The translations under genes were made by a program, and so were the position numbers. A stretch of DNA of 64,000 nt from a virus: the IMG/VR virus record IMGVR_UViG_3300021141_000001, one strand, 5' to 3'. Shown here in pieces: positions 1,169-58,489 of this stretch. The number at the start of each line of letters is the position of its first letter. Position 1 is the first letter of the stretch. The notes under the pieces were generated by a model that saw only the letters and a program-made list of their open reading frames with translations, ran no database searches and had not been told where the DNA came from.

Positions 1169-1711
1169 ATGAGATATTTAAAAACTTATGAATCATTTTC
1201 AACAAACGAAGAGTTCTTAGGTGGACTTTGGAACAAAATTAGTTCAGCATTCGCTAATTGGAAAAATGAAAAATTGAAAAATGCTGGTGAAAAACTAGCT
1301 AAGGCAATTGAAGAAAAGAAAGACCAACCAGAAATGGCTAAGGCTCTTGCTGACTTAAAATCTGCTTATGCTTCTTTACCACAAGAAGATAAAGCTAAAA
1401 TTGAATCACTTAAAGATGAGAAAAATATTCCTGTTCATACTGAAGCTTCTACAGAAGAAGAAATAATGGCTGAATCACTTCTTCTTGAAGAAGAAGGATT
1501 AGCTATGAAAATTATTGGTTGGTTAGGTTTATCTGCTAGTGCTATTTCTTTTGTAACTTTAATCGTTACTGTTGTTCAAATAGCAATCGCTGGTTCTGGT
1601 TTCCCACTTACATTATTTGGATTATCATTAGGTACTTTAGGTGCTATCTGTATGGTCGCTGTGATGGTATTTGGTATCGGTGGTAGTATGGCAATGGAAT
1701 ATGCTGACTAA
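1169..1711 (+). CDS. Putative virion-internal membrane protein with capsid-targeting-like N-terminus
   Basis: MRYLKTYESFSTNEE start; two C-terminal hydrophobic helices. Confidence 0.6.
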   Translation: MRYLKTYESFSTNEEFLGGLWNKISSAFANWKNEKLKNAGEKLAKAIEEKKDQPEMAKALADLKSAYASLPQEDKAKIESLKDEKNIPVHTEASTEEEIMAESLLLEEEGLAMKIIGWLGLSASAISFVTLIVTVVQIAIAGSGFPLTLFGLSLGTLGAICMVAVMVFGIGGSMAMEYAD

Positions 1712-1747
1712 TTAAAATATTAAACAATATATAAAAAGGAGATAATA

Positions 1748-1978
1748 TTAATTATCTCCTTTTTTTTCTGCCAAGATTTTTTCAACTTCAGCGTCAATTC
1801 CACTAACTCTTAAAGTCCACTTAGTTAAGAAAAAGTTTCCAGCTAATACAGCTAATTGAAATGGAAAACTAGTTAAGATTTGTTTTTGACCTCCTAAGAA
1901 GTATAAAGCGAATACAAACATAGCTAAAGAAACTGTGTGATGAATTGCTTTGTAGTTTTTACAGTATAATGTTTTCAT
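1748..1978 (-). CDS. Small membrane protein (probably early)
   Basis: Two hydrophobic segments; host-type promoter upstream. Confidence 0.65.
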   Translation of the reverse strand: MKTLYCKNYKAIHHTVSLAMFVFALYFLGGQKQILTSFPFQLAVLAGNFFLTKWTLRVSGIDAEVEKILAEKKGDN

Positions 1979-2004
1979 GTTGTAGTGATTTTTTAATTGT
2001 TTAA

Positions 2005-2035
2005 CAAAGATAAGCTATTTTATCTAAATACCAAA
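2005..2035 (-). promoter_or_regulatory. Bacteroidota sigmaA-type promoter
   Basis: TTTG-N19-TATCTTTG on minus strand. Confidence 0.7.
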
Positions 2036-2093
2036 AATAAAATAACTTTTTTCTAAAAAATATCTATAACTCATGTAAAAATAAATAGAATAG

Positions 2094-3620: not shown

Positions 3621-3669
3621 CAAAATAGATTTTACTTTTTAATATATACAGAAAAATAAAATATTTTTT

Positions 3670-6060
3670 ATGGAAATTAAAAAGTTTTCTGATTTTGAAT
3701 ATCTTAACGAAGAAGAGAATCTTTGGGGTAATATAAAATACGGTCTTAGTAAACTAGGTAGATATAAAGCTAATGGTAAAATCTTTGGTAAAGGCGAAAC
3801 TGATAAAAAAGCCGCTGAAGAAATTGGTAGAATTATGGGTAATACTACTAATGCTGCTCTTAGTGCTGTTTATGATAAAGTAAAAGAAAAATCACCTGAG
3901 TGGCCCAATGATAAAAGTAGAGTTGCTTTTTTAAGAGGTGTTTTAATGTATGGTCAATTCTATGACTCTATTGTTGCTGCCGCTGAAAAAAGTCCAGAGG
4001 AAGAAGGATATTTAGATCCAGAAGTTGCTAATAAACTTATTGAGAATACAAGAAAGGTTGTTAAAAAAGCATTAGATACTGATTTAGCGGCGGTTTATTC
4101 TGTGATGGATTCTAATAATTCTATTGATTTAAACAAAGAAGAATTACTTTTTGAAGAAATATTTAATTTAGAAAATGAGCCTATTAATGAGGAGTTCTTA
4201 AAGAAGTTAGGTCAGTTAAAAGACAAAGCTATGGATGCTCTTTTTGGTAAAAAAGATGAAGATTCAGAAGCTAGAAAAGCTGGAAACAGACAATCTGCTA
4301 AGTTACAAGGTGCTGGAGACGACAACGTTGTTGATAGTGAGAGAATGAAAACTCTTAAATCTAATAAACTTCCTTTAATTTTAGCTGGAGTTGGTGGTGC
4401 TTTAGGTGCTATTGGTTGGATTGCTCAAACTCAATGGTTTAAAGACTTAATTACTACAACAATTAAACACCCTGCTCAGTTTGGTGAGAAAACATTTACA
4501 ACTACTGTTGAGAATAATCTTAAAGTAGATCCAAAAGGATGGTCATATACTATTCAAAATAATGGATTTATGGATGCTACTGGTAAATCATTGAATTTCA
4601 ATCAACCAGTTGGTAACTTAAAAGACGCTTTCAGTTTCTATGGTGGTGGTGATCAGGCAAAAGGTATTGAAGCTATGTCGAGCTTCTTAGGAGGTGGCGG
4701 AAAAGCTTCTTCTGTTGCTGATATTACTAGTCAATTAGCAAATCCAGCAAATAAAACAGTTGGTGATATTTTTAATCATCTTGAAGGAACTTGGGGAGAT
4801 AACGTTTTAATGAACCAAAATGGTGGTGCTAAAAGTTTTATTGCTAAACAAGTTTATACTCAAACTAAAAAAGTTTTAATTAGAGCTGGTTTTACAACAA
4901 CTACAACATCTGCTGCTGGTAGTTATTTAATTTCAATAGCTCCTGTTCTTTCAGCTTTAGGTATTGCTCTTATTGGTGCCGGTGCTGTTGTTAAATTATT
5001 AAGAGAAAAAGGACAAAGACAATCAAGAGCTAAAACTCTTAACGATTTATTACAATCATTAGTTTTAGTTAAAATAACAGATAAAAATAAATCTAAAGGT
5101 GAAGAAGAAGGAACTGGAAAAGATGAAGAAATAAATACTACTGATGTTCCAACTGAAAAGTCAATTTATCCTTTAATGATTAAAAACCTTACTCAATTAA
5201 AAAGTTTAATTATTACTTCTGCTGGTGTTAAACTAGAAGGTGAAGGTGGTGATAAAGGTGCTGGTAATATTAAAATTGGTAAAGAGTATTACTTTACAAA
5301 TAAAAAAGGAGATAAGAAAAAAGTTAAAGTTATTTCATTAACACACGATACAACAGTTGGTAAAGATAGAACTTGGTTAACTAAAGATGATGTGAAACAA
5401 ACAACTTTATCTAAAGGAAAAGCATCTGTTATCTTCAAAGATAAAAAAGGTGAATATACTGCTAGTTCTCCAGAAATGGCTGTTAATTTTGACCAATTAA
5501 GTCCAGTTAAAGAGTCAATCTCAATTAGTAAGTTTGATGATATCGTATTAGAAGATAAAAAAATTGGTACTCAAAGAAATGTTGAAGTAACTAAAGGTGA
5601 AGATTATTTAACACAAGCAGTTTCTAATATTAGAAAATCTCTTAAAAGTATTGTTGATGAGAAAGATAAAGGAGTTGGAATAACTGAAGATTTTATACAA
5701 GCTATACTAGACAAGAAAATGGATTCTGAAACTAAAGCTCCAGTTAAAGAATTATACGCTGAAGTTTATGATTATTTATATGGTAAAAAGGCTAGCACTT
5801 TGGGAGATTTTGCTCCTTTGTATAAAGAAAGTGTTGATGTTATATCTAACAAAGGTAAACGTCAAGTAGTAGCTGAAAAAATGGCGAGATTTACAAAAAG
5901 ATCTTTACAATTTGAAGGTGAAGGATTCTATGGTGGAATGGGTGAGTTTGGTGCTGACTTACAAGATTTTAATAAGTCATTCAAACAAATTATGAGTTAC
6001 TTCAAAGAAAAGAAAGACGAAGTTAAAGAAAGTAAAATTTACAAATTCAAAGATATGTAA
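3670..6060 (+). CDS. Large putative virion-internal protein with hydrophobic helices
   Basis: MEIKKFSDFEYLNEE start, TAATATATA at 3640, two Gly/Ala-rich TM-like segments. Confidence 0.6.
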   Translation: MEIKKFSDFEYLNEEENLWGNIKYGLSKLGRYKANGKIFGKGETDKKAAEEIGRIMGNTTNAALSAVYDKVKEKSPEWPNDKSRVAFLRGVLMYGQFYDSIVAAAEKSPEEEGYLDPEVANKLIENTRKVVKKALDTDLAAVYSVMDSNNSIDLNKEELLFEEIFNLENEPINEEFLKKLGQLKDKAMDALFGKKDEDSEARKAGNRQSAKLQGAGDDNVVDSERMKTLKSNKLPLILAGVGGALGAIGWIAQTQWFKDLITTTIKHPAQFGEKTFTTTVENNLKVDPKGWSYTIQNNGFMDATGKSLNFNQPVGNLKDAFSFYGGGDQAKGIEAMSSFLGGGGKASSVADITSQLANPANKTVGDIFNHLEGTWGDNVLMNQNGGAKSFIAKQVYTQTKKVLIRAGFTTTTTSAAGSYLISIAPVLSALGIALIGAGAVVKLLREKGQRQSRAKTLNDLLQSLVLVKITDKNKSKGEEEGTGKDEEINTTDVPTEKSIYPLMIKNLTQLKSLIITSAGVKLEGEGGDKGAGNIKIGKEYYFTNKKGDKKKVKVISLTHDTTVGKDRTWLTKDDVKQTTLSKGKASVIFKDKKGEYTASSPEMAVNFDQLSPVKESISISKFDDIVLEDKKIGTQRNVEVTKGEDYLTQAVSNIRKSLKSIVDEKDKGVGITEDFIQAILDKKMDSETKAPVKELYAEVYDYLYGKKASTLGDFAPLYKESVDVISNKGKRQVVAEKMARFTKRSLQFEGEGFYGGMGEFGADLQDFNKSFKQIMSYFKEKKDEVKESKIYKFKDM

Positions 6061-6091: not shown

Positions 6092-6742
6092 TTATACCTT
6101 AACAGGTGTGAAATCAAAGTTAGGTAATTTTTCTCGAACTACTTTAGTAGCTCTTTTAATATATTTAGCATTGTCATCATAGAAGATAGCTTTTTGAAAT
6201 CCTGTTTCATTTATTATTTCTACTATTCTTTCACCTTTCCAATGTCCAGAATTTTTTGTTCCATTTGGAGCCATATGTAAACCGTATTTAGGTAATTCTA
6301 ATCCTAAGTCTAATAATGTTCTAGTTATCTTATTTCTTAGTGATTCTTCTCTAGCTGTTACTATACATTTATTTTCAACTGATTTGTATAATTCTGAAAG
6401 ATCTTTTAATGTACTTGGTAAACTTAAATCTGATAAGTGAAAAGCATTTGGAGTGAACATATATAATCTATCTCCTTTTCTAACCCAGTTACCGAACTCT
6501 TTAAGCTCTTTATTAGGGTCAAGTACATAGATTCTACCATCTTGCCATTTTAGGTCGTCTAATGTAACGCCTACTCTATTTATAGATTGATTTAATAAGT
6601 CTTTGATTGTTATATCTTCCTTTAGATAATTTATAGCTAATTCATCAAAACTTGGCGAATTCACAAGCGTGTCATCAAAGTCAAAAATGTAAAGCACATT
6701 CTCGCTTGTAAATTCATTGTAGTTTTTAATCTTCATATTCAA
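6092..6742 (-). CDS. HAD-superfamily phosphatase (RNA-repair-like HAD type)
   Basis: FDFDDTL motif I, VTAR, FYDD motif IV; MKIKNYNEFTSE tag. Confidence 0.75.
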   Translation of the reverse strand: MNMKIKNYNEFTSENVLYIFDFDDTLVNSPSFDELAINYLKEDITIKDLLNQSINRVGVTLDDLKWQDGRIYVLDPNKELKEFGNWVRKGDRLYMFTPNAFHLSDLSLPSTLKDLSELYKSVENKCIVTAREESLRNKITRTLLDLGLELPKYGLHMAPNGTKNSGHWKGERIVEIINETGFQKAIFYDDNAKYIKRATKVVREKLPNFDFTPVKV

Positions 6743-8738: not shown

Positions 8739-9272
8739 TTATTTCTTTTTTGCTTCAATTGCTTTTCTTAATCCTTCAGGTAATTTAGATTGTGCTTTAG
8801 ATAAACCTTTAGTTTCCTTCTTATCATCTTTCTTATCATCTTTAGCGTCTTTAGCCGCTTTTTTCATAGATTCTTTTTTGTTACCATCTTTGTCTAAGTC
8901 TAAAAAGTCAGGTTTAGCTTTTTTGCCACCTTTTTCTTCTTTATCTTCTTTCTTATCAGCTTTTTTACCAGCTTTTTTATCTAAGTAAGCTTGAAAACCA
9001 GCGTTGATTTTTTTTCTCTCAACTACTTCGTCACCCCAAACTCTACCTCTTTCTTCTTCTCTTTCATCTTCGTAAGTATCTTCTTCTTCAGATTCTTCTC
9101 TTTCTTCTAATTCTTCTTCCTCTTCTTCAGAGTTGAAAATTTCTTCTTCTTCTTGATCAAAAGCTTGCTGATTTTCAGCAGGATTAGTCATAAGATTTTT
9201 ATTTTCCTCTTCTTCAGAGAATCTACCTAGGTCATGACCTGTGAAGTTTTCGAATTTTTTTAAGTATTTCAT
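8739..9272 (-). CDS. Acidic/basic low-complexity protein with EF-hand-like loop, putative internal head protein
   Basis: MKYLKKFENF start, poly-Glu then Lys-rich, DLDKDGN motif. Confidence 0.65.
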   Translation of the reverse strand: MKYLKKFENFTGHDLGRFSEEEENKNLMTNPAENQQAFDQEEEEIFNSEEEEEELEEREESEEEDTYEDEREEERGRVWGDEVVERKKINAGFQAYLDKKAGKKADKKEDKEEKGGKKAKPDFLDLDKDGNKKESMKKAAKDAKDDKKDDKKETKGLSKAQSKLPEGLRKAIEAKKK

Positions 9273-9402
9273 TTTAGCACAATAATTTTTTATAACTTAT
9301 ATATTAATTACAAAACATCAAATAACCTATTTTTCTTAGTTTCTTGAAAATATTTTGAAACTTTAAGAAAAATGATGGTAAATAAATAATATATACTTTA
9401 AT

Positions 9403-10191
9403 ATGAAGATTCAAAGATATACTGACTATACACTACAAAATGAAATGGCTGAAGAATTCTTAAACTCATTTGATAAAATGGTTAAAGAATCAGATGGTGG
9501 TACATCATATCAAAAAGTCGCTAAAAAAGTAATTTCAGACTTAAAGTTAAATGTTAGTTTAGTTGCCACATTTGGTGCTGGTATTGGTGCTCTTTATCCT
9601 GTTGTTCAAGGATTAATGGAAAATATGAATCTTGATTCATTTATTCTTACACCTGAATCAATTGTTCTATTAACATTATCTTCTGTTACTATAGCATATT
9701 TACAAGAGAAAAAATTCAAATCTGCTGAAGAAGAAGACCAACTAACAAAAGATTCTAAATCTATGTTAGAAGAGTTAAAAATGAAAGGATTTGGAAATGG
9801 TATAGTTAAAAAACTAATCAAAAGTCTAGAATCTGTTAAAAACATATTTTTGGTAATTGGTAAACATATAGGTGCTGTTATTGGTAGTATTGTGGATATG
9901 TTTGCTTATACTTCACTTTTAATTCCTTTATTGAATGGCGTTATGACTATAATACATAAATATGATTTGAATCTAGAAACACTTCCTCAAAATTTTCTAG
10001 GATTGGCTGTTGGTGTTGGTACTATTATAGCTAAACATGGTATTGTAGAAATTATAAACAGAATTAAAAATAAATTTCCTATTAATCCAAAAGAAGTTCT
10101 AGATGATATAGAAACTCCTGCTATTCAAAGATTTGCTACGTTTGGAGACTCAGAAGAGAAACAAGACGGTGATTTAATCAAGGAGCAATAA
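9403..10191 (+). CDS. Putative virion-associated membrane protein
   Basis: MKIQRYTDY..NE start, several hydrophobic helices, TAATATATA at 9387. Confidence 0.6.
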   Translation: MKIQRYTDYTLQNEMAEEFLNSFDKMVKESDGGTSYQKVAKKVISDLKLNVSLVATFGAGIGALYPVVQGLMENMNLDSFILTPESIVLLTLSSVTIAYLQEKKFKSAEEEDQLTKDSKSMLEELKMKGFGNGIVKKLIKSLESVKNIFLVIGKHIGAVIGSIVDMFAYTSLLIPLLNGVMTIIHKYDLNLETLPQNFLGLAVGVGTIIAKHGIVEIINRIKNKFPINPKEVLDDIETPAIQRFATFGDSEEKQDGDLIKEQ

Positions 10192-18015: not shown

Positions 18016-18738
18016 TTATTCGTCTCTAAAAGTATAAGCGTCTATAGAATTAGCAATTTCATCCTCATCTATAGTGAATTGTTTAGTCTTCATATTATAT
18101 GAAGCCACTCCATATAAATCATCACCTAGAAATACACCAACTTCAATATATTCCTCATCATCAGTTGTGTCCATATATCTATCAAAGTCTATATTATCTT
18201 CTTTATAGATTTGTCTTAATCTTTTTAGACCATCTAAGTATTCTTTATCTTGAGATGTTTTGTAAATATCAAATGTATCTTTTAGTTCTTTTGTACTTAT
18301 CTCATCACTTATAAATGATATAGAAAAAGTGTGAATAACTCTTTCGTGTCCTGTTGTTTTATCTAACCAATACTCATTTTTTTCAAGTTTTAATTCTTCC
18401 GCTTCAACTCTATCTATCATTTCATCTACAGATATCTTAATAGTATTTAGATTATCAAGAACTTTATTAAAATCATTTTTACCTGGTATCAAACTGTATT
18501 GAATTTGACAAGTATAAAGTAATCTATATTTTTCATTATCATCAACTTCAGTATTAACGGCGTGACCCTTTGTATCAATTAGATATCTATAGTTACTAAC
18601 TCTAGCAAATTGTTTAACATCAAATAAACTATCATTAAATATATCAGTTGAAATAGCCTTAGATGTTAAGAAGTCCGAATATTGTTGAGATGTTCCAAAA
18701 GACTCTTTAATAAAGTCGTTATACTTTTTAAGTTTCAT
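18016..18738 (-). CDS. Hypothetical protein with capsid-targeting-like N-terminus
   Basis: MKLKKYNDFIKES; TAATATATA 4 nt before ATG. Confidence 0.7.
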   Translation of the reverse strand: MKLKKYNDFIKESFGTSQQYSDFLTSKAISTDIFNDSLFDVKQFARVSNYRYLIDTKGHAVNTEVDDNEKYRLLYTCQIQYSLIPGKNDFNKVLDNLNTIKISVDEMIDRVEAEELKLEKNEYWLDKTTGHERVIHTFSISFISDEISTKELKDTFDIYKTSQDKEYLDGLKRLRQIYKEDNIDFDRYMDTTDDEEYIEVGVFLGDDLYGVASYNMKTKQFTIDEDEIANSIDAYTFRDE

Positions 18739-25885: not shown

Positions 25886-26203
25886 ATGAAAATTAAAAGA
25901 TTCAATGAAGACGAACAAGTAGATATCTCATCTGAAAGAGTTAGTGAAATTAATGAAGAATTAAAAGACTTTGCTGCTATTATGTTAGATAAATCTAAAT
26001 ATATTGAGTCTCTTCTAAATGAACTTAATAACTTCAGAAGTGATTCTAAAAAAGGTAATGATCAAATAGATGATTCTATTGCGGCTCTTCAAGTTATAAA
26101 GAAAGATGTTGATGATTGTAATGATAAGATTGATACTGTTATCAATAATTTAATGGATTACAATGATGGTGGTAGAAAATATATGTATACCGAAAACAAG
26201 TAA
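25886..26203 (+). CDS. Coiled-coil protein with tag-like N-terminus
   Basis: MKIKRFNE start, heptad pattern. Confidence 0.7.
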   Translation: MKIKRFNEDEQVDISSERVSEINEELKDFAAIMLDKSKYIESLLNELNNFRSDSKKGNDQIDDSIAALQVIKKDVDDCNDKIDTVINNLMDYNDGGRKYMYTENK

Positions 26204-38787: not shown

Positions 38788-39411
38788 TTAAAGAACGTAA
38801 TAGTTATCAACAATAAAACTAACTAAAGTATCACAGAACTTTTGAATACCTGCTTTCATATCATCTGTTATTTCAAATGATTCTTTAAGATATTGTGATA
38901 AGAATTTAACTTTACCAAAATCTCTAACATCTAAGGCTTGATCAATAAGATTATTTATTTCAGACTTAGACATATCTTCATAACCAACTTCTTTAGCTTG
39001 TCTCCATTCTTCACCTTCAGAATCTTGAGCCTTTTTCATAGCATCTAAGAATTCAATTAAGAAGTTAATTGATTTATCAACACCATCTTTGAATGACTTT
39101 TCAATAAAAATACTTCTTGCTGATTTTAAAGCTTTATCAAATTCACTAAGAATCACATCTCTAAATTCTTCATCTAAGTCTTCATTTCTATTTACAGAAT
39201 CTACAAACATATTAAATAAAATTTCAATTAATTTATCAGTACCATATTCTAGTTCTTCTGTGTTGCCAGAAATTCTAATTATTTTTTCCATATTGAATAT
39301 AGGATTAAACATAGCATATAATGCTTTTTTTAGTACATCAACATTTTGTCTGAAGTCTTCGTTATCATTAAGACTTTCTAAAAATAGTTTATAGTTTTTA
39401 ATTCTTTTCAT
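38788..39411 (-). CDS. Tagged protein with IDEAL-like motif
   Basis: MKRIKNYKLFLES; LIDQALDVRDF. Confidence 0.65.
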   Translation of the reverse strand: MKRIKNYKLFLESLNDNEDFRQNVDVLKKALYAMFNPIFNMEKIIRISGNTEELEYGTDKLIEILFNMFVDSVNRNEDLDEEFRDVILSEFDKALKSARSIFIEKSFKDGVDKSINFLIEFLDAMKKAQDSEGEEWRQAKEVGYEDMSKSEINNLIDQALDVRDFGKVKFLSQYLKESFEITDDMKAGIQKFCDTLVSFIVDNYYVL

Positions 39412-39419
39412 ATTTTTAA

Positions 39420-40139
39420 TTATTTTAATGATTCCGGAGTTAATGACTCTTTTATATTTTCAAAGTTTTTAGTTAATTCATCTTTCCATTGAGATTGACC
39501 TAATAGATAATTTAAGAATTTTTTAGATTTTTCAACATCTGGTATAGTAGCCATAACATCTTCACTTGTTGAAGAATTATTCAAAACAAATTTATCACCT
39601 TTTAATTTCACTGTTAAAAAAGCATCAGAGTTATCTTTTACTTTAGAGAATGTAAATTGAATAGAAGAACTACCACTAAATAATTTAGACATAAATCCTT
39701 TTTTAGGTTCAACTTTTTCAAATTCTACATTTTTAAGTTTATAGTTATAGTTAGCAAACTTTTTATATAAAGGATTAGTACAGATATAAAGTGAAAACTC
39801 ATCTGCTTTATCAGAAGGTTCTTCACCTGAAGCAACACCCATATTTCTTGTAGCTGAATGAACAGCACCCATATGACCCGCTAGAGCTTCATTGAATGAT
39901 TTGAAATCTCCAACTTTTTCTTCTACTTTACCAGCAATTTCTAAATATTGGTCCAATACTTCTTTAGTTTGAATATCAGATTCATCATATTTAACTTCAT
40001 CATCAAATAAACTAACTTTCTTATCTGCTACAAGTTTTTGTAAAAGTGGTTCACTAGTAAATAAACTTACATCTACAGAGCTAAGTTTTACAGTTTTTGA
40101 GTGTGATTCCTTAATGAAATCTTCGTACTTCTTTATCAT
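39420..40139 (-). CDS. Tagged hypothetical protein
   Basis: MIKKYEDFIKES plus internal FKSFNE. Confidence 0.7.
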   Translation of the reverse strand: MIKKYEDFIKESHSKTVKLSSVDVSLFTSEPLLQKLVADKKVSLFDDEVKYDESDIQTKEVLDQYLEIAGKVEEKVGDFKSFNEALAGHMGAVHSATRNMGVASGEEPSDKADEFSLYICTNPLYKKFANYNYKLKNVEFEKVEPKKGFMSKLFSGSSSIQFTFSKVKDNSDAFLTVKLKGDKFVLNNSSTSEDVMATIPDVEKSKKFLNYLLGQSQWKDELTKNFENIKESLTPESLK

Positions 40140-40809
40140 AATCTGTTGTATTTTTTGGATTGATTTTAAAATATAATATAACTCCCAATATTAAGATATT
40201 AGTAGCGTAGTTTAATAATAATGGTAAGTCTAATTTATCATAAACATATGCTAAAGCAAAGATTTCACCGAATGCCCAAAGAAGAACAAATCCCCAAGAA
40301 ATTCCGTGAGAGTGTTTATCTTTGAATGATTGCCAAGCTTGTGGAATGCCACATATCGCTAAACAAATAGAACCTAACCAACCAAGTATTTCAAATATTG
40401 ACATTCCTTTAGTTTGTTCTGCTATACCTGCTGATGATAATTCATCTAAGTTTTTTGGTTCAATCTTATAACCGTATTTAGTTTCAACATGAGATGATAA
40501 CTTATCAAATAACTCTTTATATTCTTCTTGATTGCCTGATTCTAACTTACTTTGTATTTCAGATAAAATGTTGTTTAATTGGTCATCTTTTGGATTTAAA
40601 TCAGTTTTTCTAATATTAGAAAGTCCCTCAACTTGTTCTACTGCGTCATTAATACCGTCTTTTGATGTAGGGTTAGTAAGAGCTGGTTTAACTAAACTTT
40701 GAGCAGTTACAGTTGGTGAATTAGCAAATAAAGAAGCCGCTAAACCAGCACCAAGTACGGCTGATCTAAGACCTTCATTATGTTGTTCATATGTTTGTAA
40801 ATATCTCAT
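40111..40809 (-). CDS. PQ-loop/SemiSWEET-domain membrane protein, tagged
   Basis: GWLG..IPQAW..KHSHGIS three-helix unit; MRYLQTYEQHNE start. Confidence 0.75.
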   Translation of the reverse strand: MRYLQTYEQHNEGLRSAVLGAGLAASLFANSPTVTAQSLVKPALTNPTSKDGINDAVEQVEGLSNIRKTDLNPKDDQLNNILSEIQSKLESGNQEEYKELFDKLSSHVETKYGYKIEPKNLDELSSAGIAEQTKGMSIFEILGWLGSICLAICGIPQAWQSFKDKHSHGISWGFVLLWAFGEIFALAYVYDKLDLPLLLNYATNILILGVILYFKINPKNTTDYDKEVRRFH

Positions 40810-40819: not shown

Positions 40820-41620
40820 TTAAAATTTATGAGGAAAAATATGTCTCCATTCATGACCTTGAGGAACATCGGAGGCTTTCACACCAAATATCTTTTTCTC
40901 TGGGCAAGTATCTTTACCATCCATTAAGAAGTTGTTATTACAAGCCCAAACTTCTACATTTCTTTGTAGTAATTGACCTACTGAGAAAGGAAATCTAATT
41001 CCTGTTTCGTTTTCAATACCAGTAATTCTACCATCTGGTGATTTAGTTACAACTATTTCTAATCTTGGGTTTCTTTTATTAGTGAATTTAACTTCTCTTT
41101 CGTGTATAGATTCGTCAATTAAATCAGCCGCTGGATTGATTTCAGTTTGAATTCTATCAAATCTTTTTCTTTCTTTATCTTCTTTATAGATTTTATCTAT
41201 TAGATGAAATAGTTTTATACGATAAGATTCTTTAGATCTAATTCTTTCACATAAACCTGTATTATTACCAATAAATAGTTTCCACTTATTTTTACACTTT
41301 TCCTCACCTGCTGGTAGTCCAGTATTATTGTATATTAGGTTATGTCTATCATTTGATATAAGGATATCAACATCATCAAATCTAACAACATAGATTACAC
41401 TGTAATATTCTGACCGAGCGCCATTTTCAGCAGTATCTGCTGCTTTAGACATCCAAGCAGGTAACCTCATATCTTCTTTCATTATATCATGAATTTCATA
41501 TGGATTACTATCTTTAACTTTTTCAAGACGATGTATCATATCCAATGTGATTTTATCATCATTGGTGTCTTTCTTAAAGTAATCTAAGAACCCTTCATTA
41601 TAAGATTTTAAGTGTTTCAT
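40820..41620 (-). CDS. Tagged hypothetical protein
   Basis: MKHLKSYNE at 41620, TAATATATA 5 nt upstream. Confidence 0.7.
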   Translation of the reverse strand: MKHLKSYNEGFLDYFKKDTNDDKITLDMIHRLEKVKDSNPYEIHDIMKEDMRLPAWMSKAADTAENGARSEYYSVIYVVRFDDVDILISNDRHNLIYNNTGLPAGEEKCKNKWKLFIGNNTGLCERIRSKESYRIKLFHLIDKIYKEDKERKRFDRIQTEINPAADLIDESIHEREVKFTNKRNPRLEIVVTKSPDGRITGIENETGIRFPFSVGQLLQRNVEVWACNNNFLMDGKDTCPEKKIFGVKASDVPQGHEWRHIFPHKF

Positions 41621-47141: not shown

Positions 47142-47167
47142 TTTTTATATTTGTAATATATAGATTA

Positions 47168-47650
47168 ATGATTAAATTTAGTGAAATGATTAATGAGGAA
47201 GTGAGTAGCGGTGTTTTTAAGCTAGGTTTAGATATACACGGAGTTGTAGATGCGATGCCTGAGTTCTTTTCATTTCTAACAGATTCATTTGTTAAAAATG
47301 GCGGAGAAGTTCATTTAATTACAGGTGGTCATTGGGATGAGAATTTTGAAAAACAATTAAATGAATTTGGTGTTAAATGGACACACAAGTTTTCTGTTTA
47401 TGACCACTTAATTGAAACTGGTGCTGGTATAACTGGTGAGATTCAGTTTCCAGATGGTACAATTCAAAAGAAATTTGAAGATGGACTTTGGGATCATGTT
47501 AAAGCAGACTATTGTAAACAAAATAACATTTCATTACATATTGATGATACTTTAATCTACAATGATTTTTTTCAAACACCATTTGCCAGATTGTGGTCAC
47601 ACAACCAAAAACCTAAGGCATCACATAAAGATGTCAGACACTTAGACTAA
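47168..47650 (+). CDS. HAD-like protein, tagged
   Basis: GLDIHGV, LITG, K, HIDD; MIKFSEMINEE. Confidence 0.65.
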   Translation: MIKFSEMINEEVSSGVFKLGLDIHGVVDAMPEFFSFLTDSFVKNGGEVHLITGGHWDENFEKQLNEFGVKWTHKFSVYDHLIETGAGITGEIQFPDGTIQKKFEDGLWDHVKADYCKQNNISLHIDDTLIYNDFFQTPFARLWSHNQKPKASHKDVRHLD

Positions 47651-48132
47651 TGATAAACAAGATTAATAAATTTTTTGAATTTGAACCCTTTGAAAGTAAG
47701 ATGAAAAAGTCGGCTGGTGTTATTATTATTTTAAATAATGAAAAAATATTACTTTGTCATCCATCAAATAATGATAAATGGTTTGGTTCTTACTCTTTTC
47801 CAAAAGGCGGTATTGATGAAGGTGAAACTATTAAACAAGCTGCTTTAAGAGAGTTGTTTGAAGAGACATCTGTGAAAATTAATGATAGTATGCTTTCTGG
47901 AGAGCCACTAGTTCTTGATTATATGAACTATAAAAAGAAAGGTGTTGTTTATAAAAGAATATATTTATTTACTTTATACATTACTGACATTTCTGAAATT
48001 GGATTAGACTCAGAAGTTATTCCAAGTGATAAACTTCCTTTTGGTGAAATAGATTGGGCTGGCTTTATACCTAAAGAAGAAGCCAAGTTAAGATTGTTTC
48101 ACAGAAGTGTTCCTATGTTAGATAAGATATAA
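47650..48132 (+). CDS. NUDIX hydrolase
   Basis: GGIDEGETIKQAALRELFEETS Nudix box. Confidence 0.88.
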   Translation: MINKINKFFEFEPFESKMKKSAGVIIILNNEKILLCHPSNNDKWFGSYSFPKGGIDEGETIKQAALRELFEETSVKINDSMLSGEPLVLDYMNYKKKGVVYKRIYLFTLYITDISEIGLDSEVIPSDKLPFGEIDWAGFIPKEEAKLRLFHRSVPMLDKI

Positions 48133-53102: not shown

Positions 53103-54458
53103 TTACTTATTTAAGTATCTTTCTAAATCTGATTTCAAATCATTATTGAGAGATTTTGAATCAACATGACCGTAGTCAGAGAAATTTGGTTTCATTTCAT
53201 AAGTGAAATATTGTTCACCACACCAGTCTTTGAATATGTCAAATAAACTATTACCTTTTAATCTATCAGCATCTTCGTTATCTATCCAATCATTACTATA
53301 GGGAATAGTATAAAATGTATCAAGCTCTTGATATTCTCTTCTTGTTTGATTTCCTTCAGCGTCTTTTGATGTATAGTATTTAGTAACCTCTCTTTTTTCT
53401 TTTGTAAATGTAAATTCACTTTCAACTACTTCATCAAATTCATCAAGAATTGATTGATAGTTTGAATCAACGTGAGCATTCATTTCCCAGTCTCCTATTG
53501 TACTTCTAATTTCTTGACAGATTTCAGAATTTTTACATAATTGTTTTAGAGTTTCATAGAATCTTTCTTTTAGTAAGAATTGAATAACTTCTTCTTCTGA
53601 TTTTCCTTTAACACTTTCATATGCTTCATCAGAACATTCATCACCAATATGATTAATCATATCTTCTAATCCACCAACTTCTTTAATCATAGCTTTAATC
53701 AATAATTGATTATTTTCTTTAGTTAATGTATATTGAAACATTGAAGGTATATCCGGTTGATAATCTGAACCATAGTAATTATCATACATATCTTCTTCGC
53801 CTTTTACTAAAATGTCTTTATAGCTAGAACTTCTAGACAACATAATATCAGACATATCTTCTAAATTAACCTCAACATAAATATTACCATCTTTAATAAT
53901 GGCATCTGACCAGTCATAATATTTTACAAGGTCTTCTTCTGTGAATTCAACAGTATCTTTTGACTTAACAAAAATAGCAATATAATCATTAGCTTCTAAT
54001 GACTCAGGTTCACCTGAATTCCAGTTATCTGTAAAGAATAATCCACCTTTAATTTCTACACCATCTATATCACCAATATTGCCATCTTTATCGTGTATTG
54101 ATATTTCAGCATTTGCTTCTTCTTCTATAATTGAACAAGTAAATTGAAATGTAGAAGTAACATCATCATTTTTAAGTCTTTGTCCTTTTATTATTTGAAT
54201 CCAATAAGCAGGTCTAACTTTATCACCTGATTTTACCTTATCAGTATAAACATCTTTATCTTTTACCTCTTTAGTAGACCAATTTTTTTCTTGTATAGTT
54301 TCACAAAATCCAAAATCTACACTAACTATATAACCAGCATCTGTTATTTCTAACATATAATCAGTGATATCATCTTCGGTTAGTTTCCAAAGAGTTTTCT
54401 CTTCTATTTGTTCTTTAATAGATTCGGAAATAAAGTGAATATATCTTTTAAGTTTCAT
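53103..54458 (-). CDS. Acidic tagged hypothetical protein
   Basis: MKLKRYIHFISES. Confidence 0.7.
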   Translation of the reverse strand: MKLKRYIHFISESIKEQIEEKTLWKLTEDDITDYMLEITDAGYIVSVDFGFCETIQEKNWSTKEVKDKDVYTDKVKSGDKVRPAYWIQIIKGQRLKNDDVTSTFQFTCSIIEEEANAEISIHDKDGNIGDIDGVEIKGGLFFTDNWNSGEPESLEANDYIAIFVKSKDTVEFTEEDLVKYYDWSDAIIKDGNIYVEVNLEDMSDIMLSRSSSYKDILVKGEEDMYDNYYGSDYQPDIPSMFQYTLTKENNQLLIKAMIKEVGGLEDMINHIGDECSDEAYESVKGKSEEEVIQFLLKERFYETLKQLCKNSEICQEIRSTIGDWEMNAHVDSNYQSILDEFDEVVESEFTFTKEKREVTKYYTSKDAEGNQTRREYQELDTFYTIPYSNDWIDNEDADRLKGNSLFDIFKDWCGEQYFTYEMKPNFSDYGHVDSKSLNNDLKSDLERYLNK

Positions 54459-54460: not shown

Positions 54461-54476
54461 TTTAATATATATTAAA
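54461..54476. promoter_or_regulatory. Palindromic bidirectional late promoter
   Basis: TTTAATATATATTAAA between two divergent tagged genes. Confidence 0.65.
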
Positions 54477-54492: not shown

Positions 54493-55332
54493 ATGAGATA
54501 CATAAAGTTATACGAACAATTTAGAATATTTGAGGCAGAAGATATTAAAGATATTCCAGCACCATCAAAACAAGTACTTTTAGATGGAACATCTAGTTCT
54601 GGTAAAAGTGCCGCACTTAAAGGCTTATCAGATGATTGGTGTGTTTTAGCGGTAGATTCATTTTATAATTTAATGTATGAAGAGGCAGGAAATGAAGATT
54701 TTGGAAATAAAGATAAACCAAAAATATCTGAAGTATATCCTGATTGTCCTTATAAAACAAGTCGTGGTACCGAGGATTTTGAAAAAGCTGCTAGATGGTT
54801 TATGACACAAGAAGCAAAATATGGAAAAATATCAAAATTAGGATTAAAGGATAAAAATGGTACATTTGGAAGATCTGAACAAAGTAAAAATGTAATATAT
54901 GATGATGTTCAAGGAACCATATTAGAGTCTGCTGTTAAATCTGGTCTTTCTAAGCCAAAATGGATTTTAGTTCATGCTCCAATCGACCATTTAATTTTGA
55001 ATATAGAAAGAAGAAAAGGAACTGACGGTAGAGACCCCAAAAATGTTTTTATTGGTGCTTATTGTTTTAAGTATGAGGCAAAATCTGAAAAGGGCGGTGT
55101 TGATCCTGAAAAATCTTGGACTAAATCTTCTGTGAAAGAGTTATTTAAAAATCAATCTTGGGTTGATGAATTCTTAAATAAACTAGGTATCAAAGAAGAT
55201 GAAAAAGAATATTGGATATACACTAAAAGTATGCCAGAAGGAAAATATGATGTAATTGTTAATACAAGAAATAAATCTGGTAATCAGATGACAATTGATG
55301 AGGTTTCATCAGAAGTTAAGAAAAATTTCTAA
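54493..55332 (+). CDS. P-loop kinase (chloramphenicol phosphotransferase-like), tagged
   Basis: LDGTSSSGKS, VDSF, VIYDD, YDVIVNT; MRYIKLYEQFRIFE. Confidence 0.65.
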   Translation: MRYIKLYEQFRIFEAEDIKDIPAPSKQVLLDGTSSSGKSAALKGLSDDWCVLAVDSFYNLMYEEAGNEDFGNKDKPKISEVYPDCPYKTSRGTEDFEKAARWFMTQEAKYGKISKLGLKDKNGTFGRSEQSKNVIYDDVQGTILESAVKSGLSKPKWILVHAPIDHLILNIERRKGTDGRDPKNVFIGAYCFKYEAKSEKGGVDPEKSWTKSSVKELFKNQSWVDEFLNKLGIKEDEKEYWIYTKSMPEGKYDVIVNTRNKSGNQMTIDEVSSEVKKNF

Positions 55333-56431: not shown

Positions 56432-56989
56432 TTATGCTTGTTGTAAATTTGTACCACAACCTGGACAAAATTTATAATTATTGTTTTCTAAGCCACAGTT
56501 GTAGCAAAATTTAATATTTGATACATTTATTGGTGTTTTATTAGTTTCTATAGATTTTACTTGTTCTATAACATTTGTTTTTTTAATGTGTATAAAATTT
56601 GTATTTGGATAAATTTGGTCTCTTTTACCTGTTATTATTATTTCAGGATTTGACTCTATGTTAAATATCCAAGGACTTTTTATCCATCTAGTGAATATTT
56701 TTGTTTTTTGGTCAATTTCTTCTCTACTTTTACCATCTATAAAAACAACAATTTCATTTACATTATTTCTTTCTATTAATCCTCCAGGTTCTAATAAAAC
56801 ATCTTGTAACACACTCATTGTTTTAAAAACTTCTTTTTGATCCGGAACTCCTTCAATTAGTTTAAAATTAAAAGTCCAGAGTTTTGAACCGGGTGCTGTT
56901 TCTAATAATTGAACACCATATTTAGTTCCGTTATCAGAACTAAAAACTATAGTGTTATTCCAAGAAATGGATCTATCTATTGTGTACAT
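56432..56989 (-). CDS. Protein with C-terminal double zinc ribbon
   Basis: FCYNCG...FCPGCG; ATG at 56989. Confidence 0.7.
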   Translation of the reverse strand: MYTIDRSISWNNTIVFSSDNGTKYGVQLLETAPGSKLWTFNFKLIEGVPDQKEVFKTMSVLQDVLLEPGGLIERNNVNEIVVFIDGKSREEIDQKTKIFTRWIKSPWIFNIESNPEIIITGKRDQIYPNTNFIHIKKTNVIEQVKSIETNKTPINVSNIKFCYNCGLENNNYKFCPGCGTNLQQA

Positions 56990-57008
56990 AAAATTATATA
57001 TCAAAAAA

Positions 57009-57040
57009 CTTGTTTTTTCTTAACTAATGTTGTATATTTG
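57009..57040 (+). promoter_or_regulatory. Bacteroidota sigmaA-type promoter
   Basis: CTTG-N20-TATATTTG. Confidence 0.6.
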
Positions 57041-57063
57041 TATAATTAATAAATTAGCTCGAC

Positions 57064-58287
57064 GTGAATAAAAACAACTTAATTTTAGAAACATTCCTAC
57101 GGTTGACGAGCCGCACTTATCCACATGGTACTGAAGATGAATTGGTAGAATCAATGATTGAACAAGGTATATTTCCAGTGGATTTACAAAAAGACGTACA
57201 TGGTAACTACTTCTATAAAATAGGAGAGTCACGAACTATATTTGCTTCTCACTTAGATACTGTTAGTAAAGAATCTACCACCGTAACACATACATTTGAT
57301 GATTATATGATTGGTACTGATGGTAAGACTACTTTAGGTGCTGATGATAAAGCAGGTGTGACTGTTATGTTACATTTAATGAAAAATAACATTCCTGGTC
57401 TTTACTACTTCTTCATCGGTGAAGAAGTTGGTTGTATTGGTTCAGGATTGGCATCATCAATGTCTATAAAAGACTTCAAAGGTAAATACGATAGAATTAT
57501 CTCTTTTGATAGAAGAGGCACTGACTCTGTTATTACCTATCAATCTTCTACAAGATGTTGTTCAGATGATTTTGCCGATGCTTTGGCAAGACAATTGAAC
57601 TTATCTGGTATGAAATATAAAAAAGACGAAGGTGGAGTTTATACTGACTCGGCTGAGTTTACTGATATCATCCCAGAGTGTACAAATATATCTGTTGGTT
57701 ATTACAAAGAACATACTGTTAATGAGACTCAAGATATTCAACACCTTGAAGATTTATCAATGGCTTGTTTATTAGTTGATTGGGAGAATCTTCCAACTCA
57801 ACGAGATATGACTAAGAAAGAGTACAAATCTTATGGTTATACTAACTATGGCACTGGTTATAAATCAACTACTTATAAACCCAAATCTAACGATTGGAGA
57901 AGAAGAGATTATGGTTATCACGATGATTGGTATGACCAAAGTCCTCAAGATGATGCGCCTATTGATAATAGTGTTGATGATGTTGATTGGGAAATCGAAT
58001 ATGGTAAATTTAAGAAAAGCCGTAGAAGTAATAAAAAAGGAAAATCTTACATTGATAATGGATCCGGTTTAGAACCATATAGCGATAGAACTAATATTTC
58101 ATATAAAAGTTCTACATTATCAAATGTAGGGAATGATAGAAATTACTATGATAATTTGATTGATAAAATTGTTAAAGATGATTTATCAAAAGAAGATTTA
58201 GAAGTTATTAAAGACCAATATCTTGATATGACTACTGAAAATGATAGAACTTTTTATCAATATCTTTTAGGAAACATTATCGACTAA
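57064..58287 (+). CDS. M20/M28-family zinc peptidase
   Basis: SHLDTV, GADDKAG, GEEVG, FDRRG, YTDS, NISVGY..EH. Confidence 0.85.
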   Translation: MNKNNLILETFLRLTSRTYPHGTEDELVESMIEQGIFPVDLQKDVHGNYFYKIGESRTIFASHLDTVSKESTTVTHTFDDYMIGTDGKTTLGADDKAGVTVMLHLMKNNIPGLYYFFIGEEVGCIGSGLASSMSIKDFKGKYDRIISFDRRGTDSVITYQSSTRCCSDDFADALARQLNLSGMKYKKDEGGVYTDSAEFTDIIPECTNISVGYYKEHTVNETQDIQHLEDLSMACLLVDWENLPTQRDMTKKEYKSYGYTNYGTGYKSTTYKPKSNDWRRRDYGYHDDWYDQSPQDDAPIDNSVDDVDWEIEYGKFKKSRRSNKKGKSYIDNGSGLEPYSDRTNISYKSSTLSNVGNDRNYYDNLIDKIVKDDLSKEDLEVIKDQYLDMTTENDRTFYQYLLGNIID

Positions 58288-58489
58288 AATCAATAATATC
58301 AGAAGACTTAATAATTTCATCAGGAGCATTAGGAATTTTAGAATTAGGAACATTATGACTAACTTTATAAGAAACTTTAGACAATTTCTCAAGTATTTTA
58401 ACAGGAGTAACCATGTCATTATACCAATATTCTATAAGAACATTGTCACCCTCTTTTAAAAACGATTTAAACTCTAACAAAAACTTCAT
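58277..58489 (-). CDS. Small SH3/Tudor-like tagged protein
   Basis: MKFLLEFKSFLKE then GDNV...VKI. Confidence 0.55.
   Translation of the reverse strand: MKFLLEFKSFLKEGDNVLIEYWYNDMVTPVKILEKLSKVSYKVSHNVPNSKIPNAPDEIIKSSDIIDFSR

What the first reader, a model, noticed from the sequence alone, without database searches (positions are those of the whole stretch)
1169..58489. About 25 unrelated proteins share a T4-like N-terminal capsid-targeting tag
Seen: starts such as MRYLKTYESFSTNE (1169), MEIKKFSDFEYLNE (3670), MKIKNYNEFTSE (6736), MKYLKKFENF (9272), MKLKKYNDFIKE (18738), MKIKRFNE (25886), MKKFSDF (27507), MGIFNFKQFVINE (29060), MGIIKKFDSFLSE (30071), MKNFEQFIKE (30340), MKLFKYNQF..LNE (32086), MKRIKNYKLFLE (39411), MIKKYEDFIKE (40139), MRYLQTYEQHNE (40809), MKHLKSYNE (41620), MIKFSEMINE (47168), MKLKRYIHFISE (54458), MRYIKLYEQFRIFE (54493) and MKFLLEFKSFLKE (58489). 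Consensus K-x-(F/Y)-x-x-F-(I/L)-x-E. Nearly all sit behind TAATATATA, and the replication enzymes lack it. Known: T4 internal proteins carry MKTYQEFIAE-like targeting sequences cleaved by gp21 after (I/L)-x-E. Inference: a greatly expanded addressing system that loads dozens of proteins into the head for co-injection.
Basis: partly seen in the sequence, partly recalled or inferred. Interest (0 to 1): 0.8.

Follow-up and report, generated by a model that had tools for sequence, protein, structure and literature searches.

The report
Expanded T4-like capsid-loading tag
About one protein in seven of this uncultured, roughly 0.6-megabase T4-related phage starts with a short peptide that matches the tag phage T4 uses to load proteins into its head and then clip off, which suggests (no experiment yet) that this phage pre-loads over a hundred different proteins for injection with its DNA.

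Summary
All 19 quoted starts exist. With a scoring matrix, 18 of 79 window ORFs (plus 3 weaker) and 128 of 894 ORFs of the 635-kb relative LR745206 carry the tag at the N-terminus. Truly internal hits are about 8 in 175,000 positions, and shuffled controls give 4-12.

The tagged proteins are unrelated to each other (121 body families), mostly soluble ORFans, clustered, and enriched behind the late-promoter-like TAATATATA.

The tag matches the T4 capsid targeting sequence. The same matrix run on T4 returns IPI, IPII and IPIII among its top four N-terminal hits. In 117 homologues of one window protein, the conserved positions are 4, 7, 8 and 10, the ones T4 mutagenesis found to matter.

The lineage's gp21-type protease is fused to a helical scaffold holding about ten copies of the tag core (Y-x-E-Y-[LI]-A-E).

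Packaging, cleavage and injection are untested. About 60% of tags lack a canonical [IL]-x-E site.

The scan reached the same reading earlier, on the adjacent window of this genome and on other genomes. I found no published description. Verdict: a new, greatly expanded variant of a known system.

The parts
1169..1711 (+). Tagged ORF, 180 aa, starts MRYLKTYESFSTNE; TAATATATA at 1136-1144; two C-terminal hydrophobic helices
   Evidence: 21.2 bits. In 109 homologues the first 14 residues are the most conserved part of the protein.
3670..6060 (+). Tagged ORF, 796 aa, starts MEIKKFSDFEYLNE; TAATATATA at 3640-3648
   Evidence: 11.9 bits.
6092..6736 (-). Tagged ORF, 214 aa, starts MKIKNYNEFTSE; the tag sits directly before a HAD-type DxDxT strand; weak polynucleotide-kinase/phosphatase-like match
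   Evidence: 22.0 bits. The orthologue in the relative has a shorter, degenerate leader.
8739..9272 (-). Tagged ORF, 177 aa, starts MKYLKKFENF; TAATATATA at 9298-9306; acidic body
   Evidence: 21.2 bits. The orthologue keeps the tag at 42% body identity.
9403..10191 (+). Weak or degenerate tag, 262 aa, starts MKIQRYTDYTLQNE; TAATATATA at 9387-9395
   Evidence: below threshold.
18016..18738 (-). Tagged ORF, 240 aa, starts MKLKKYNDFIKE followed by S; TAATATATA at 18743-18751
   Evidence: 23.6 bits; [IL]-x-E ends at residue 12.
25886..26203 (+). Tagged ORF, 105 aa, starts MKIKRFNEDE; TAATATATA at 25853-25861
   Evidence: 18.5 bits; no second aromatic residue.
26914..27507 (-). Tagged ORF, 197 aa, starts MKKFSDFKPV; Dps-like / DUF5856 body; TAATATATA at 27532-27540
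   Evidence: 10.6 bits.
27954..29060 (-). Tagged ORF, 368 aa, starts MGIFNFKQFVINE followed by A; TAATATATA at 29066-29074
   Evidence: 11.9 bits. The orthologue keeps a tag ending INE then A at 27% body identity.
30071..30331 (+). Tagged ORF, 86 aa, starts MGIIKKFDSFLSE followed by K, then a Pro/Thr-rich stretch; TAATATATA at 30038-30046
   Evidence: 12.4 bits.
30340..32079 (+). Tagged ORF, 579 aa, starts MKNFEQFIKE followed by E; same length and register as the T4 IPII/IPIII tag
   Evidence: 16.1 bits. In 117 homologues, positions 1, 2, 4, 7, 8, 10 and 11 are conserved and 3, 5 and 6 are free. In the AF2 model the body is confident and residues 1-13 are unstructured. No known fold match.
32086..34041 (+). 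Tagged ORF, 651 aa, starts MKLFKYNQFLGD; ankyrin repeats at the C-terminus
   Evidence: 19.0 bits.
38788..39411 (-). Tagged ORF, 207 aa, starts MKRIKNYKLFLE followed by S; first of a run of four tagged genes
   Evidence: 17.7 bits.
39420..40139 (-). Tagged ORF, 239 aa, starts MIKKYEDFIKE followed by S
   Evidence: 21.5 bits.
40111..40809 (-). Tagged ORF, 232 aa, starts MRYLQTYEQHNE; PQ-loop membrane domain; TAATATATA at 40814-40822
   Evidence: 16.4 bits. A membrane protein, so an awkward case for head loading.
40820..41620 (-). Tagged ORF, 266 aa, starts MKHLKSYNEG; TAATATATA at 41626-41634
   Evidence: 17.1 bits.
47168..47650 (+). Degenerate tag, 160 aa, starts MIKFSEMINE followed by E; TAATATATA at 47154-47162
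   Evidence: below threshold. The orthologue has the same degenerate form.
47650..48132 (+).
   Evidence: 13.1 bits.
53103..54458 (-). Tagged ORF, 451 aa, starts MKLKRYIHFISE followed by S; shares a two-way TAATATATA region (54463-54474) with the next gene
   Evidence: 20.4 bits. The orthologue keeps the tag at 48% identity.
54493..55332 (+). Tagged ORF, 279 aa, starts MRYIKLYEQFRIFE followed by A; P-loop kinase-like body
   Evidence: 19.3 bits.
58277..58489 (-). Weak tag, 70 aa, starts MKFLLEFKSFLKE followed by G; TAATATATA at 58494-58502
   Evidence: 7.1 bits. The orthologue is 74% identical with the same start.

Best explanation
The tag is a prohead-core (capsid) targeting propeptide of the T4 CTS type, used here on a much larger scale.

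Proposed mechanism:
1. Late in infection, a gp21-type protease fused to a long helical scaffold builds the prohead core. The scaffold rod carries about ten 14-residue repeats whose core is Y-x-E-Y-[LI]-A-E.
2. Proteins that start with M-K-x-(x-x)-[YF]-x-x-[FY]-[IL]-x-E, or with the related M-K-[YH]-[LI]-K-x-[YF] form, dock into this core through the two aromatic residues of a short, flexible N-terminal peptide. The peptide resembles one scaffold repeat.
3. When the shell closes, the protease cuts scaffold and leaders after Glu.
4. The freed cargo stays in the head and enters the cell with the DNA. The cargo is about 120 mostly unknown, fast-evolving soluble proteins, plus RNA-repair enzymes, a NUDIX hydrolase, an exonuclease and a cell-wall peptidase.

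Shown here: the tag and its N-terminal specificity; its match to T4's tag; the protease fold; the scaffold repeats in relatives; the link to late-type promoters.

Inferred: binding to the scaffold, cleavage, packaging and injection.
For: - T4 match: T4 IPII and IPIII start MKTYQEFIAE followed by A, and IPI starts MKTFKEF with a later ITE-A site. The matrix built only from huge-phage N-termini ranks gp61.1, IPI, IPII and IPIII as the four best N-terminal hits among 260 T4 ORFs.
- Functional positions: T4 targeting depends on residues 4 and 7, and processing on 8 and 10 (PMC9026906). In 117 homologues of window ORF 30340, column entropy is low at 4, 7, 8 and 10 and high at 3, 5 and 6.
- Selection on the tag: tags persist in orthologues whose bodies are only 27-63% identical. 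The tag is the most conserved part of the ORF 1169 family. Synonymous codon use at tag columns equals genome-wide use, so selection acts on the peptide.
- Unrelated cargo: 128 tagged proteins fall into 121 body families. The Rnl1 homologue has an 18-residue N-terminal extension holding the tag, relative to T4 RnlA.
- Tag structure: in the AF2 model of ORF 30340, residues 1-13 are unstructured on a confident body.
- Protease: weak Pfam S77 hit; Foldseek top hit is T4 gp21 5JBL at probability 1.0; a conserved N-terminal L-I-x-E as in gp21.
- Scaffold: 9-11 copies of [YFW]xE[YFW][ILVM]xE in all 80 IMG/VR relatives. The motif is kept in most of 150 representatives down to about 30% identity. The repeats lie in one 214-residue helix.
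- Timing: AATATATA is enriched upstream of tagged genes (odds ratio 9.6 in the window, 4.0 in the relative) and precedes terminase, portal and protease-scaffold genes.
- Cargo properties: tagged proteins are depleted in membrane helices (2/128 against 67/766) and their genes cluster.
- Distribution: Lak-A1, whose protease-linked scaffold lacks the repeats, shows no such tags.
Against: - There is no virion proteome, N-terminal mapping or transcript data for this uncultured lineage.
- 86 of 146 tags have no [ILVM]-x-E at the expected offset; many end in F-N-E or Y-N-E.
- About 120 cargo species is more than twice the roughly 50 head proteins known for phiKZ-like phages.
- 56% of tagged genes in the relative have no promoter motif within 80 nt.
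- Window ORFs 40111 (PQ-loop), 1169 and 3670 have hydrophobic helices.
- Tagged proteins are on average acidic, whereas T4 internal proteins are basic.
- T4 gp61.1, in an early gene region and not known as a head protein, has the same start.
- The 735-kb relative has the scaffold repeats but none of the MK[YH][LI]K-type tags, so that class may be read by something else.
- The scaffold of the window's own genome could not be read here; it is reported only in an earlier scan note.
Confidence: 0.65

Rival explanations
1. There are two different tags. Only the T4-register class (M-x-K-K-[YF]-x-x-F-[IL]-x-E; about 50 proteins in the relative) is a capsid-targeting propeptide. The commoner M-K-[YH]-[LI]-K-x-[YF] class (about 78 proteins) is an address for a different, unidentified partner.
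For: - The 735-kb relative has 24 T4-register tags but no tags of the second class, although its scaffold has the repeats.
- Most second-class tags lack [ILVM]-x-E.
- T4 has no such starts.
- This phage lineage already uses another, C-terminal tag on about 90 other proteins.
Against: - Both classes share K-x-[YF]-x-x-F and merge into one matrix.
- Both are enriched behind the late-type motif: 40% and 50%, against 16% for untagged genes.
- They intermix in gene runs nearly as expected by chance: 16 mixed neighbour pairs against 21.5 expected.
- One subset ends in [IL]-F-E-S, as at two [IL]-x-E sites of the T4 scaffold gp22.
Confidence: 0.15
2. The tag is a docking or degradation signal read outside the head. 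Candidates are a phage-run chaperone or unfoldase, an N-terminal degron that times protein levels, or a hub for a replication or translation factory.
For: - No direct evidence of packaging exists.
- Some tag-bearers are enzymes that could act in the cytoplasm: RNA ligase, CCA-adding-type enzyme, NUDIX and a P-loop kinase.
- Some are membrane proteins.
- T4 gp61.1 carries the motif in an early region.
Against: - The match to the T4 CTS at the functional positions.
- The same motif repeated in the head scaffold, fused to the head protease.
- The late-promoter link.
- None of these is predicted by this reading.
Confidence: 0.12
3. The shared start has no function as a peptide. It would be a by-product of mobile promoter-plus-leader cassettes, or of selection for A/T-rich, Lys-rich codons that favour translation initiation.
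For: - The genome is 29% G+C.
- Many tags sit 12-13 nt behind the promoter-like motif.
Against: - Synonymous codon use at conserved columns equals genome-wide use.
- Substitutions are conservative at the protein level (Y/F, I/L, K/R).
- Promoter spacing varies, and half the tagged genes have no nearby motif.
- Highly expressed capsid, portal, sheath and terminase genes lack the tag.
- Shuffled N-termini of the same composition give 4-12 hits against 127.
Confidence: 0.03

Closest known systems
Capsid targeting sequence (CTS) of phage T4 internal proteins IPI, IPII and IPIII (Mullaney and Black 1996; reviews PMC9026906, PMC9958956)
   Same: An N-terminal peptide of about 10 residues with aromatic residues at i and i+3, followed by [IL]-x-E. 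It sits on otherwise unrelated, fast-evolving proteins of a phage with a gp21-type protease and a gp23-type capsid. Window ORF 30340 has the same length and register as the T4 tag.
   Different: T4 has 3-4 such proteins (1.5% of ORFs); this lineage has about 120 (13-14%). Most tags here have a longer M-K-[YH]-[LI]-K preface. Many lack the canonical cut site. The cargo is acidic rather than basic and includes recognisable enzymes. Nothing has been tested experimentally.
T4 prohead protease gp21 plus scaffold core protein gp22 (PDB 5JBL; Pfam Peptidase_S77)
   Same: The protease domain has the gp21 fold and a conserved N-terminal L-I-x-E. The scaffold region is helical and full of [IL]-x-E sites. 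T4 gp22 contains E-W-L-A-E-N, I-F-E-S and L-F-E-S, which resemble the repeat and one tag class.
   Different: Here protease and scaffold are one 700-residue polypeptide. The scaffold is a regular array of about ten 14-residue repeats whose core equals the tag core. T4 has two separate genes and no such array.
Herpesvirus assemblin-scaffold fusion (pUL26 / pUL26.5 type)
   Same: A capsid maturation protease of the same fold class is fused to the scaffold protein and cuts it after assembly. Herpes proteases are the next-best structural hits.
   Different: A different cleavage motif. No family of short N-terminal cargo tags is known there.
Long N-terminal propeptides of head and ejection proteins in phiKZ-like giant phages (SPN3US, PMC5694885)
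   Same: Many internal head proteins are loaded and trimmed by a gp21-related protease. Some ejection proteins have membrane helices.
   Different: Those propeptides are 80-130 residues long, not a common short motif, and the cut motif is [AGS]-x-E. About 50 head proteins in all.
Cargo-loading peptides of encapsulins
   Same: It works like these: a short terminal peptide addresses unrelated enzymes to the inside of an HK97-fold shell.
   Different: Those peptides are C-terminal, bind the shell protein directly and are not cleaved. They have no sequence relationship to this tag.

Membership tests
T4-type capsid targeting sequence (CTS) | Located at the extreme N-terminus of otherwise unrelated proteins | tested here: met
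   About 8 true internal hits in roughly 175,000 positions against 128 N-terminal hits. The tagged proteins fall into 121 body families.
T4-type capsid targeting sequence (CTS) | Aromatic residues at positions equivalent to T4 IPIII residues 4 and 7 (targeting) | tested here: met
   Matrix columns +2 (Y72/F68 of 145) and +5 (F87/Y10). Entropy is 0.2 at both positions in 117 homologues of ORF 30340. The matrix retrieves T4 IPI-III.
T4-type capsid targeting sequence (CTS) | [IL]-x-E processing site directly after the targeting residues (T4 residues 8 and 10) | tested here: inconclusive
   Present at the expected offsets in 60 of 146 tags. 52% of tagged proteins have one within residues 6-18, against 23% of untagged. 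The remainder end in [FY]-x-E or have a later site, as T4 IPI does.
T4-type capsid targeting sequence (CTS) | A gp21-type prohead protease encoded by the same phage | tested here: met
   Tested in the relative LR745206 and 80 IMG/VR relatives. For the window's own genome this rests only on an earlier scan note.
T4-type capsid targeting sequence (CTS) | Late expression together with head genes | tested here: inconclusive
   The promoter-like motif is enriched (odds ratios 9.6 and 4.0) and shared with terminase, portal and protease genes. No transcript data are available.
T4-type capsid targeting sequence (CTS) | The tag is sufficient to load a protein into the prohead, and is removed by the protease | not testable with these tools
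   Needs virion proteomics, N-terminal mapping or reporter packaging.
Peptidase_S77 (T4 gp21 prohead protease) | Sequence match above Pfam's gathering score | tested here: not met
   PF03420 scores 20.1 bits against a cut-off of 27. A profile of 81 family members hits 5JBL at E = 5e-4.
Peptidase_S77 (T4 gp21 prohead protease) | gp21/assemblin fold with conserved His and Ser | tested here: met
   In the AF2 model, residues 22-165 have pLDDT above 90. The Foldseek top hits are 5JBL chains at probability 1.0, E = 7e-7, target TM 0.63-0.68. S127 and R129 are invariant, and H72 and H85 nearly invariant.

The most novel reading that the evidence does not exclude
The tag is a single free copy of the head scaffold's own repeat unit. 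Cargo proteins would co-assemble with the helical rod of the protease-scaffold fusion by mimicking one repeat, and would be released by the same cut that dismantles the scaffold. This would name the long-sought binding partner of the T4 CTS. It would also mean that huge phages of this clade ship over 100 different proteins, including a ready-made tRNA/RNA repair kit, into the cell with their DNA. A second, mutually exclusive C-terminal tag would address another 10% of the proteome elsewhere.
Probability: 0.35. Interest if true: 0.85.

Novelty: new variant of a known kind. Interest (0 to 1): 0.7.

Why it matters
How the T4 capsid targeting sequence finds the prohead core is still called 'mysterious' in a 2023 review (PMC9958956). 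This lineage offers a concrete, testable candidate: a scaffold made of tandem copies of the tag core, fused to the protease.

If about 120 proteins per genome are really pre-loaded, then much of the unexplained coding capacity of the largest known phages is an injected arsenal. The tag would then give a sequence-only way to list those proteins in metagenomes. It is also a natural precedent for multiplexed protein delivery by engineered T4-type heads.

Tried and rejected
- **Own genome:** none is held for the window, and an exact 30-mer from the window was not in IMG/VR. Genome-wide work therefore used LR745206, which is 75% identical in DNA over parts of the window.
- **Closer large contigs:** none of five large IMG/VR contigs tried was closer than 67-73%.
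- **Function of tagged proteins:** Pfam and PHROGs name few of them. The confident model of the 579-residue tagged protein has no PDB match, and only an uncharacterised phage match in BFVD.
- **Nucleotide-level or cassette explanation:** rejected on codon usage.
- **Signal-peptide or membrane explanation:** rejected, because the tag has no hydrophobic core and tagged proteins are depleted in membrane helices.
- **Paralogy:** rejected.
- **Co-variation between scaffold repeat and tag residues across lineages:** by inspection of the tag and repeat sequences (not computed), Ile predominates at the [IL] position of both in both genomes compared, so the comparison is uninformative.
- **Literature:** searches for the CTS together with huge phages or megaphages found no description. 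The library lacks most subscription papers.
Full report
**Context**

The window is 29% G+C. It encodes T4-type replication proteins: DNA polymerase, two helicases and UvsX. Its nearest public record is LR745206.1, a 634,780-bp uncultured phage that matches parts of the window at about 75% DNA identity. That length matches the 634-kb member of the four largest genomes in Al-Shayeb et al. 2020, which place their largest genomes in the Mahaphage clade with predicted Bacteroidetes hosts (PMC7162821). No whole genome is held for the window. I therefore fetched the whole relative and phage T4 for genome-wide controls.

**The observation**

- An iterated position matrix at 10 bits flags 145 of 973 ORFs across window plus relative. 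That is 18 of 79 in the window, plus three weak cases, and 128 of 894 in the relative.
- Half of the 16 'internal' hits begin with Met. They are starts that my crude ORF caller over-extended.
- A matrix trained on the relative alone finds 14 of 79 window N-termini and one internal hit in 18,371 positions. The same procedure gives 4-12 hits on shuffled N-termini, and 5 of 638 on pseudo-N-termini taken at internal Met residues.
- A back-translated pattern for one class gives 58 hits in the relative and none for the reversed pattern.

**Unrelated bearers and selection on the peptide**

- With the first 25 residues removed, the 128 tagged proteins of the relative form 121 BLAST families.
- Orthologue pairs between window and relative keep the tag while their bodies are only 27-63% identical. 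Untagged replication proteins are 70-83% identical.
- In 109 homologues of ORF 1169-1711, the first 14 residues are the most conserved part of the protein.
- Synonymous codon use at the conserved tag columns equals genome-wide use, for example AAA:AAG 48:17 observed against 48.1:16.9 expected. Conservation is therefore at the peptide level, not the DNA level.
- The Rnl1-type RNA ligase of the relative aligns with T4 RnlA only from its residue 27. Its tag lies in an 18-residue add-on.
- In the AF2 model of the 579-residue window protein (mean pLDDT 80.6, pTM 0.73), residues 1-13 are unstructured.

**Match to the T4 tag**

From the T4 record itself, IPII and IPIII begin MKTYQEFIAE followed by A. 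IPI begins MKTFKEF and has I-T-E then A at residues 17-20. The matrix built only from huge-phage N-termini, run on 260 T4 ORFs, gives gp61.1, IPI, IPII and IPIII as its best N-terminal hits.

A review of the T4 work states that targeting depends mainly on CTS residues 4 and 7, and processing on residues 8 and 10 (PMC9026906). In 117 homologues (59-99% identical) of window ORF 30340-32079, column entropy is as follows:

| Position | 1 | 2 | 3 | 4 | 5 | 6 | 7 | 8 | 9 | 10 | 11 |
|---|---|---|---|---|---|---|---|---|---|---|---|
| Entropy | 0 | 0.1 | 1.4 | 0.2 | 1.5 | 1.5 | 0.2 | 0.5 | 0.3 | 0 | 0 |

The conserved positions are the ones T4 genetics found to matter.

**Head machinery of the lineage**

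- In the relative, the gene just before the Gp23-family capsid gene is a 707-residue protein. Its N-terminus gives a weak Peptidase_S77 match. Its middle holds a 42-bp-period tandem array.
- The array is about ten to thirteen 14-residue units with the core Y-S-E-Y-[LI]-A-E. This is aromatic, x, E, aromatic, [LI], small residue, Glu: the tag core and the T4 Y-Q-E-F-I-A-E pattern.
- All 80 IMG/VR relatives fetched have 9-11 strict copies, apart from two with 3.
- Most of 150 representatives of the family, down to about 30% identity, keep Y-x-x-Y-[ILV]-[AGS]-E copies.
- The AF2 model with an 81-sequence alignment gives four parts: a confident protease domain, one continuous helix spanning residues 236-449 that contains the repeats, an acidic disordered stretch, and a helical C-terminal domain.
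- Foldseek's top hits are the T4 gp21 structure 5JBL at probability 1.0, followed by herpesvirus assemblins.
- The family keeps an N-terminal L-I-x-E, as gp21 does.
- T4 gp22 itself contains E-W-L-A-E-N, I-F-E-S and L-F-E-S. The last two resemble the tag subclass that ends in [IL]-F-E-S.
- I found the repeats, before reading earlier scan notes that say the same for other genomes. One note says the window's own genome has them about 28 kb upstream. I could not read that DNA.

**Regulation and nature of the cargo**

- TAATATATA occurs 24 times in the window against 4.8 expected. The occurrences I mapped lie just upstream of ORF starts.
- AATATATA lies within 80 nt upstream of 13 of 18 tagged and 13 of 61 untagged window genes. 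In the relative the figures are 56 of 128 and 124 of 766.
- The same motif precedes the terminase, portal and protease-scaffold genes, so it is probably the late promoter.
- Tagged proteins are depleted in membrane helices (2/128 against 67/766). Their genes form runs: 45 adjacent pairs against 18 expected.
- Only 8 of 127 tagged proteins have Pfam domains at E <= 1e-5. These are a poly(A)-polymerase/CCA-type nucleotidyltransferase, Rnl1, a 2H phosphoesterase, NFACT-R, NUDIX, RNase T, an M15 peptidase and a DUF.
- The window adds a HAD/kinase-like protein, a Dps-like protein, an ankyrin protein and a P-loop kinase-like protein.
- Several of these are RNA-repair enzymes. If they are packaged, this would suggest a pre-loaded answer to host anticodon nucleases. 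That is inference only.

**Heterogeneity and caveats**

Tags fall into two main groups.
- A T4-register class, M-x-K-K-[YF]-x-x-F-[IL]-x-E, has about 50 members in the relative.
- A class with the preface M-K-[YH]-[LI]-K-x-[YF] has about 78 members. Some of these end in [IL]-F-E-S and many end in F-N-E or Y-N-E.

Only 60 of 146 tags have [ILVM]-x-E at the expected offsets. Both classes are enriched behind the promoter motif and intermix in gene runs.

The classes are not distributed alike across relatives:

| Genome | MK[YH][LI]K-type pattern hits | T4-register pattern hits | Scaffold repeats |
|---|---|---|---|
| LR745206 (635 kb) | 58 | 19 | yes |
| LR756501 (735 kb) | 0 | 24 | yes |
| LR756504 | 33 | 12 | yes |
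| LR756500 | 14 | 5 | degenerate |
| Lak-A1 | 0 | 4 (mostly out of frame) | none |

Other points that sit uneasily with head loading:
- Window ORFs 40111 (PQ-loop), 1169 and 3670 have hydrophobic helices. A packaged ejection protein of SPN3US also has one (PMC5694885).
- Tagged proteins are net acidic, unlike the T4 internal proteins.
- About 120 cargo species would be unprecedented.

**Verdict**

The reading as a T4-type capsid-loading and clip-off tag is the best explanation (about 0.65). It is supported by sequence, structure-prediction, comparative and regulatory evidence, but not by any experiment.

The most novel reading still open is that the tag is one free copy of the scaffold repeat, which would identify what the CTS binds. 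Searches of the paper library found no description of a CTS expansion in huge phages or of a scaffold built from CTS-like repeats. A 2023 review calls the localisation mechanism mysterious.

The scan has reached the same reading before, on the adjacent window of this genome and on other genomes.

Noticed in passing
LR745206 whole record (loci L003-L034): The N-terminal tag and a C-terminal tag, R-x-x-[KR]-[IL]-x-x-[ILV]-[LIF] within the last 16 residues, almost never occur on the same protein: 1 protein has both, 127 have only the N-tag and 91 only the C-tag (odds ratio 0.06, p = 1e-5). Together the two labels mark about a quarter of the ORFs.
   Followed up: partly
L051:467-631 (T4 AF158101 18966-19130, gene 61.1): T4 gp61.1, a 54-residue hypothetical protein next to the primase gene, starts MKTFKEFIKE followed by D. 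It scores higher with the huge-phage tag matrix than IPI-III do. It is either an unrecognised candidate head cargo or a warning that the motif is not exclusive to head proteins.
   Followed up: partly
window 18743-18751, 29066-29074, 40814-40822, 41626-41634, 47154-47162, 58494-58502: In many tagged genes the promoter-like TAATATATA starts only 12-16 nt before the ATG; a second group sits at 28-33 nt. The short spacing leaves no room for a Shine-Dalgarno leader and suggests leaderless or nearly leaderless late transcripts.
   Followed up: no
LR745206 172579-174963 (- strand, 794 aa; within L011): A large late protein next to the tail sheath gene has a strong tag-like motif (18.8 bits) in its interior near residue 375. 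This could be a fused cargo or an internal processing site.
   Followed up: no
window 20798-25158: Three consecutive ORFs of 525, 513 and 406 aa lie behind a TAATATATA. The first two have similar starts. They have no PHROG match and are conserved at 39-56% in the relative. They may be structural proteins.
   Followed up: no
LR745206 tagged set (alignment A1): Recognisable tagged enzymes are biased towards RNA end-healing and repair: Rnl1, a CCA-type nucleotidyltransferase, a 2H phosphoesterase and NFACT-R, plus a kinase/phosphatase-like HAD protein in the window at 6092-6736.
   Followed up: partly
L139 (LR756501, 735 kb), L142 (Lak-A1): The 735-kb relative has the scaffold repeats but only the T4-register tag class. 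Lak-A1's protease is followed by an acidic region without repeats, and neither tag pattern is found there.
   Followed up: partly
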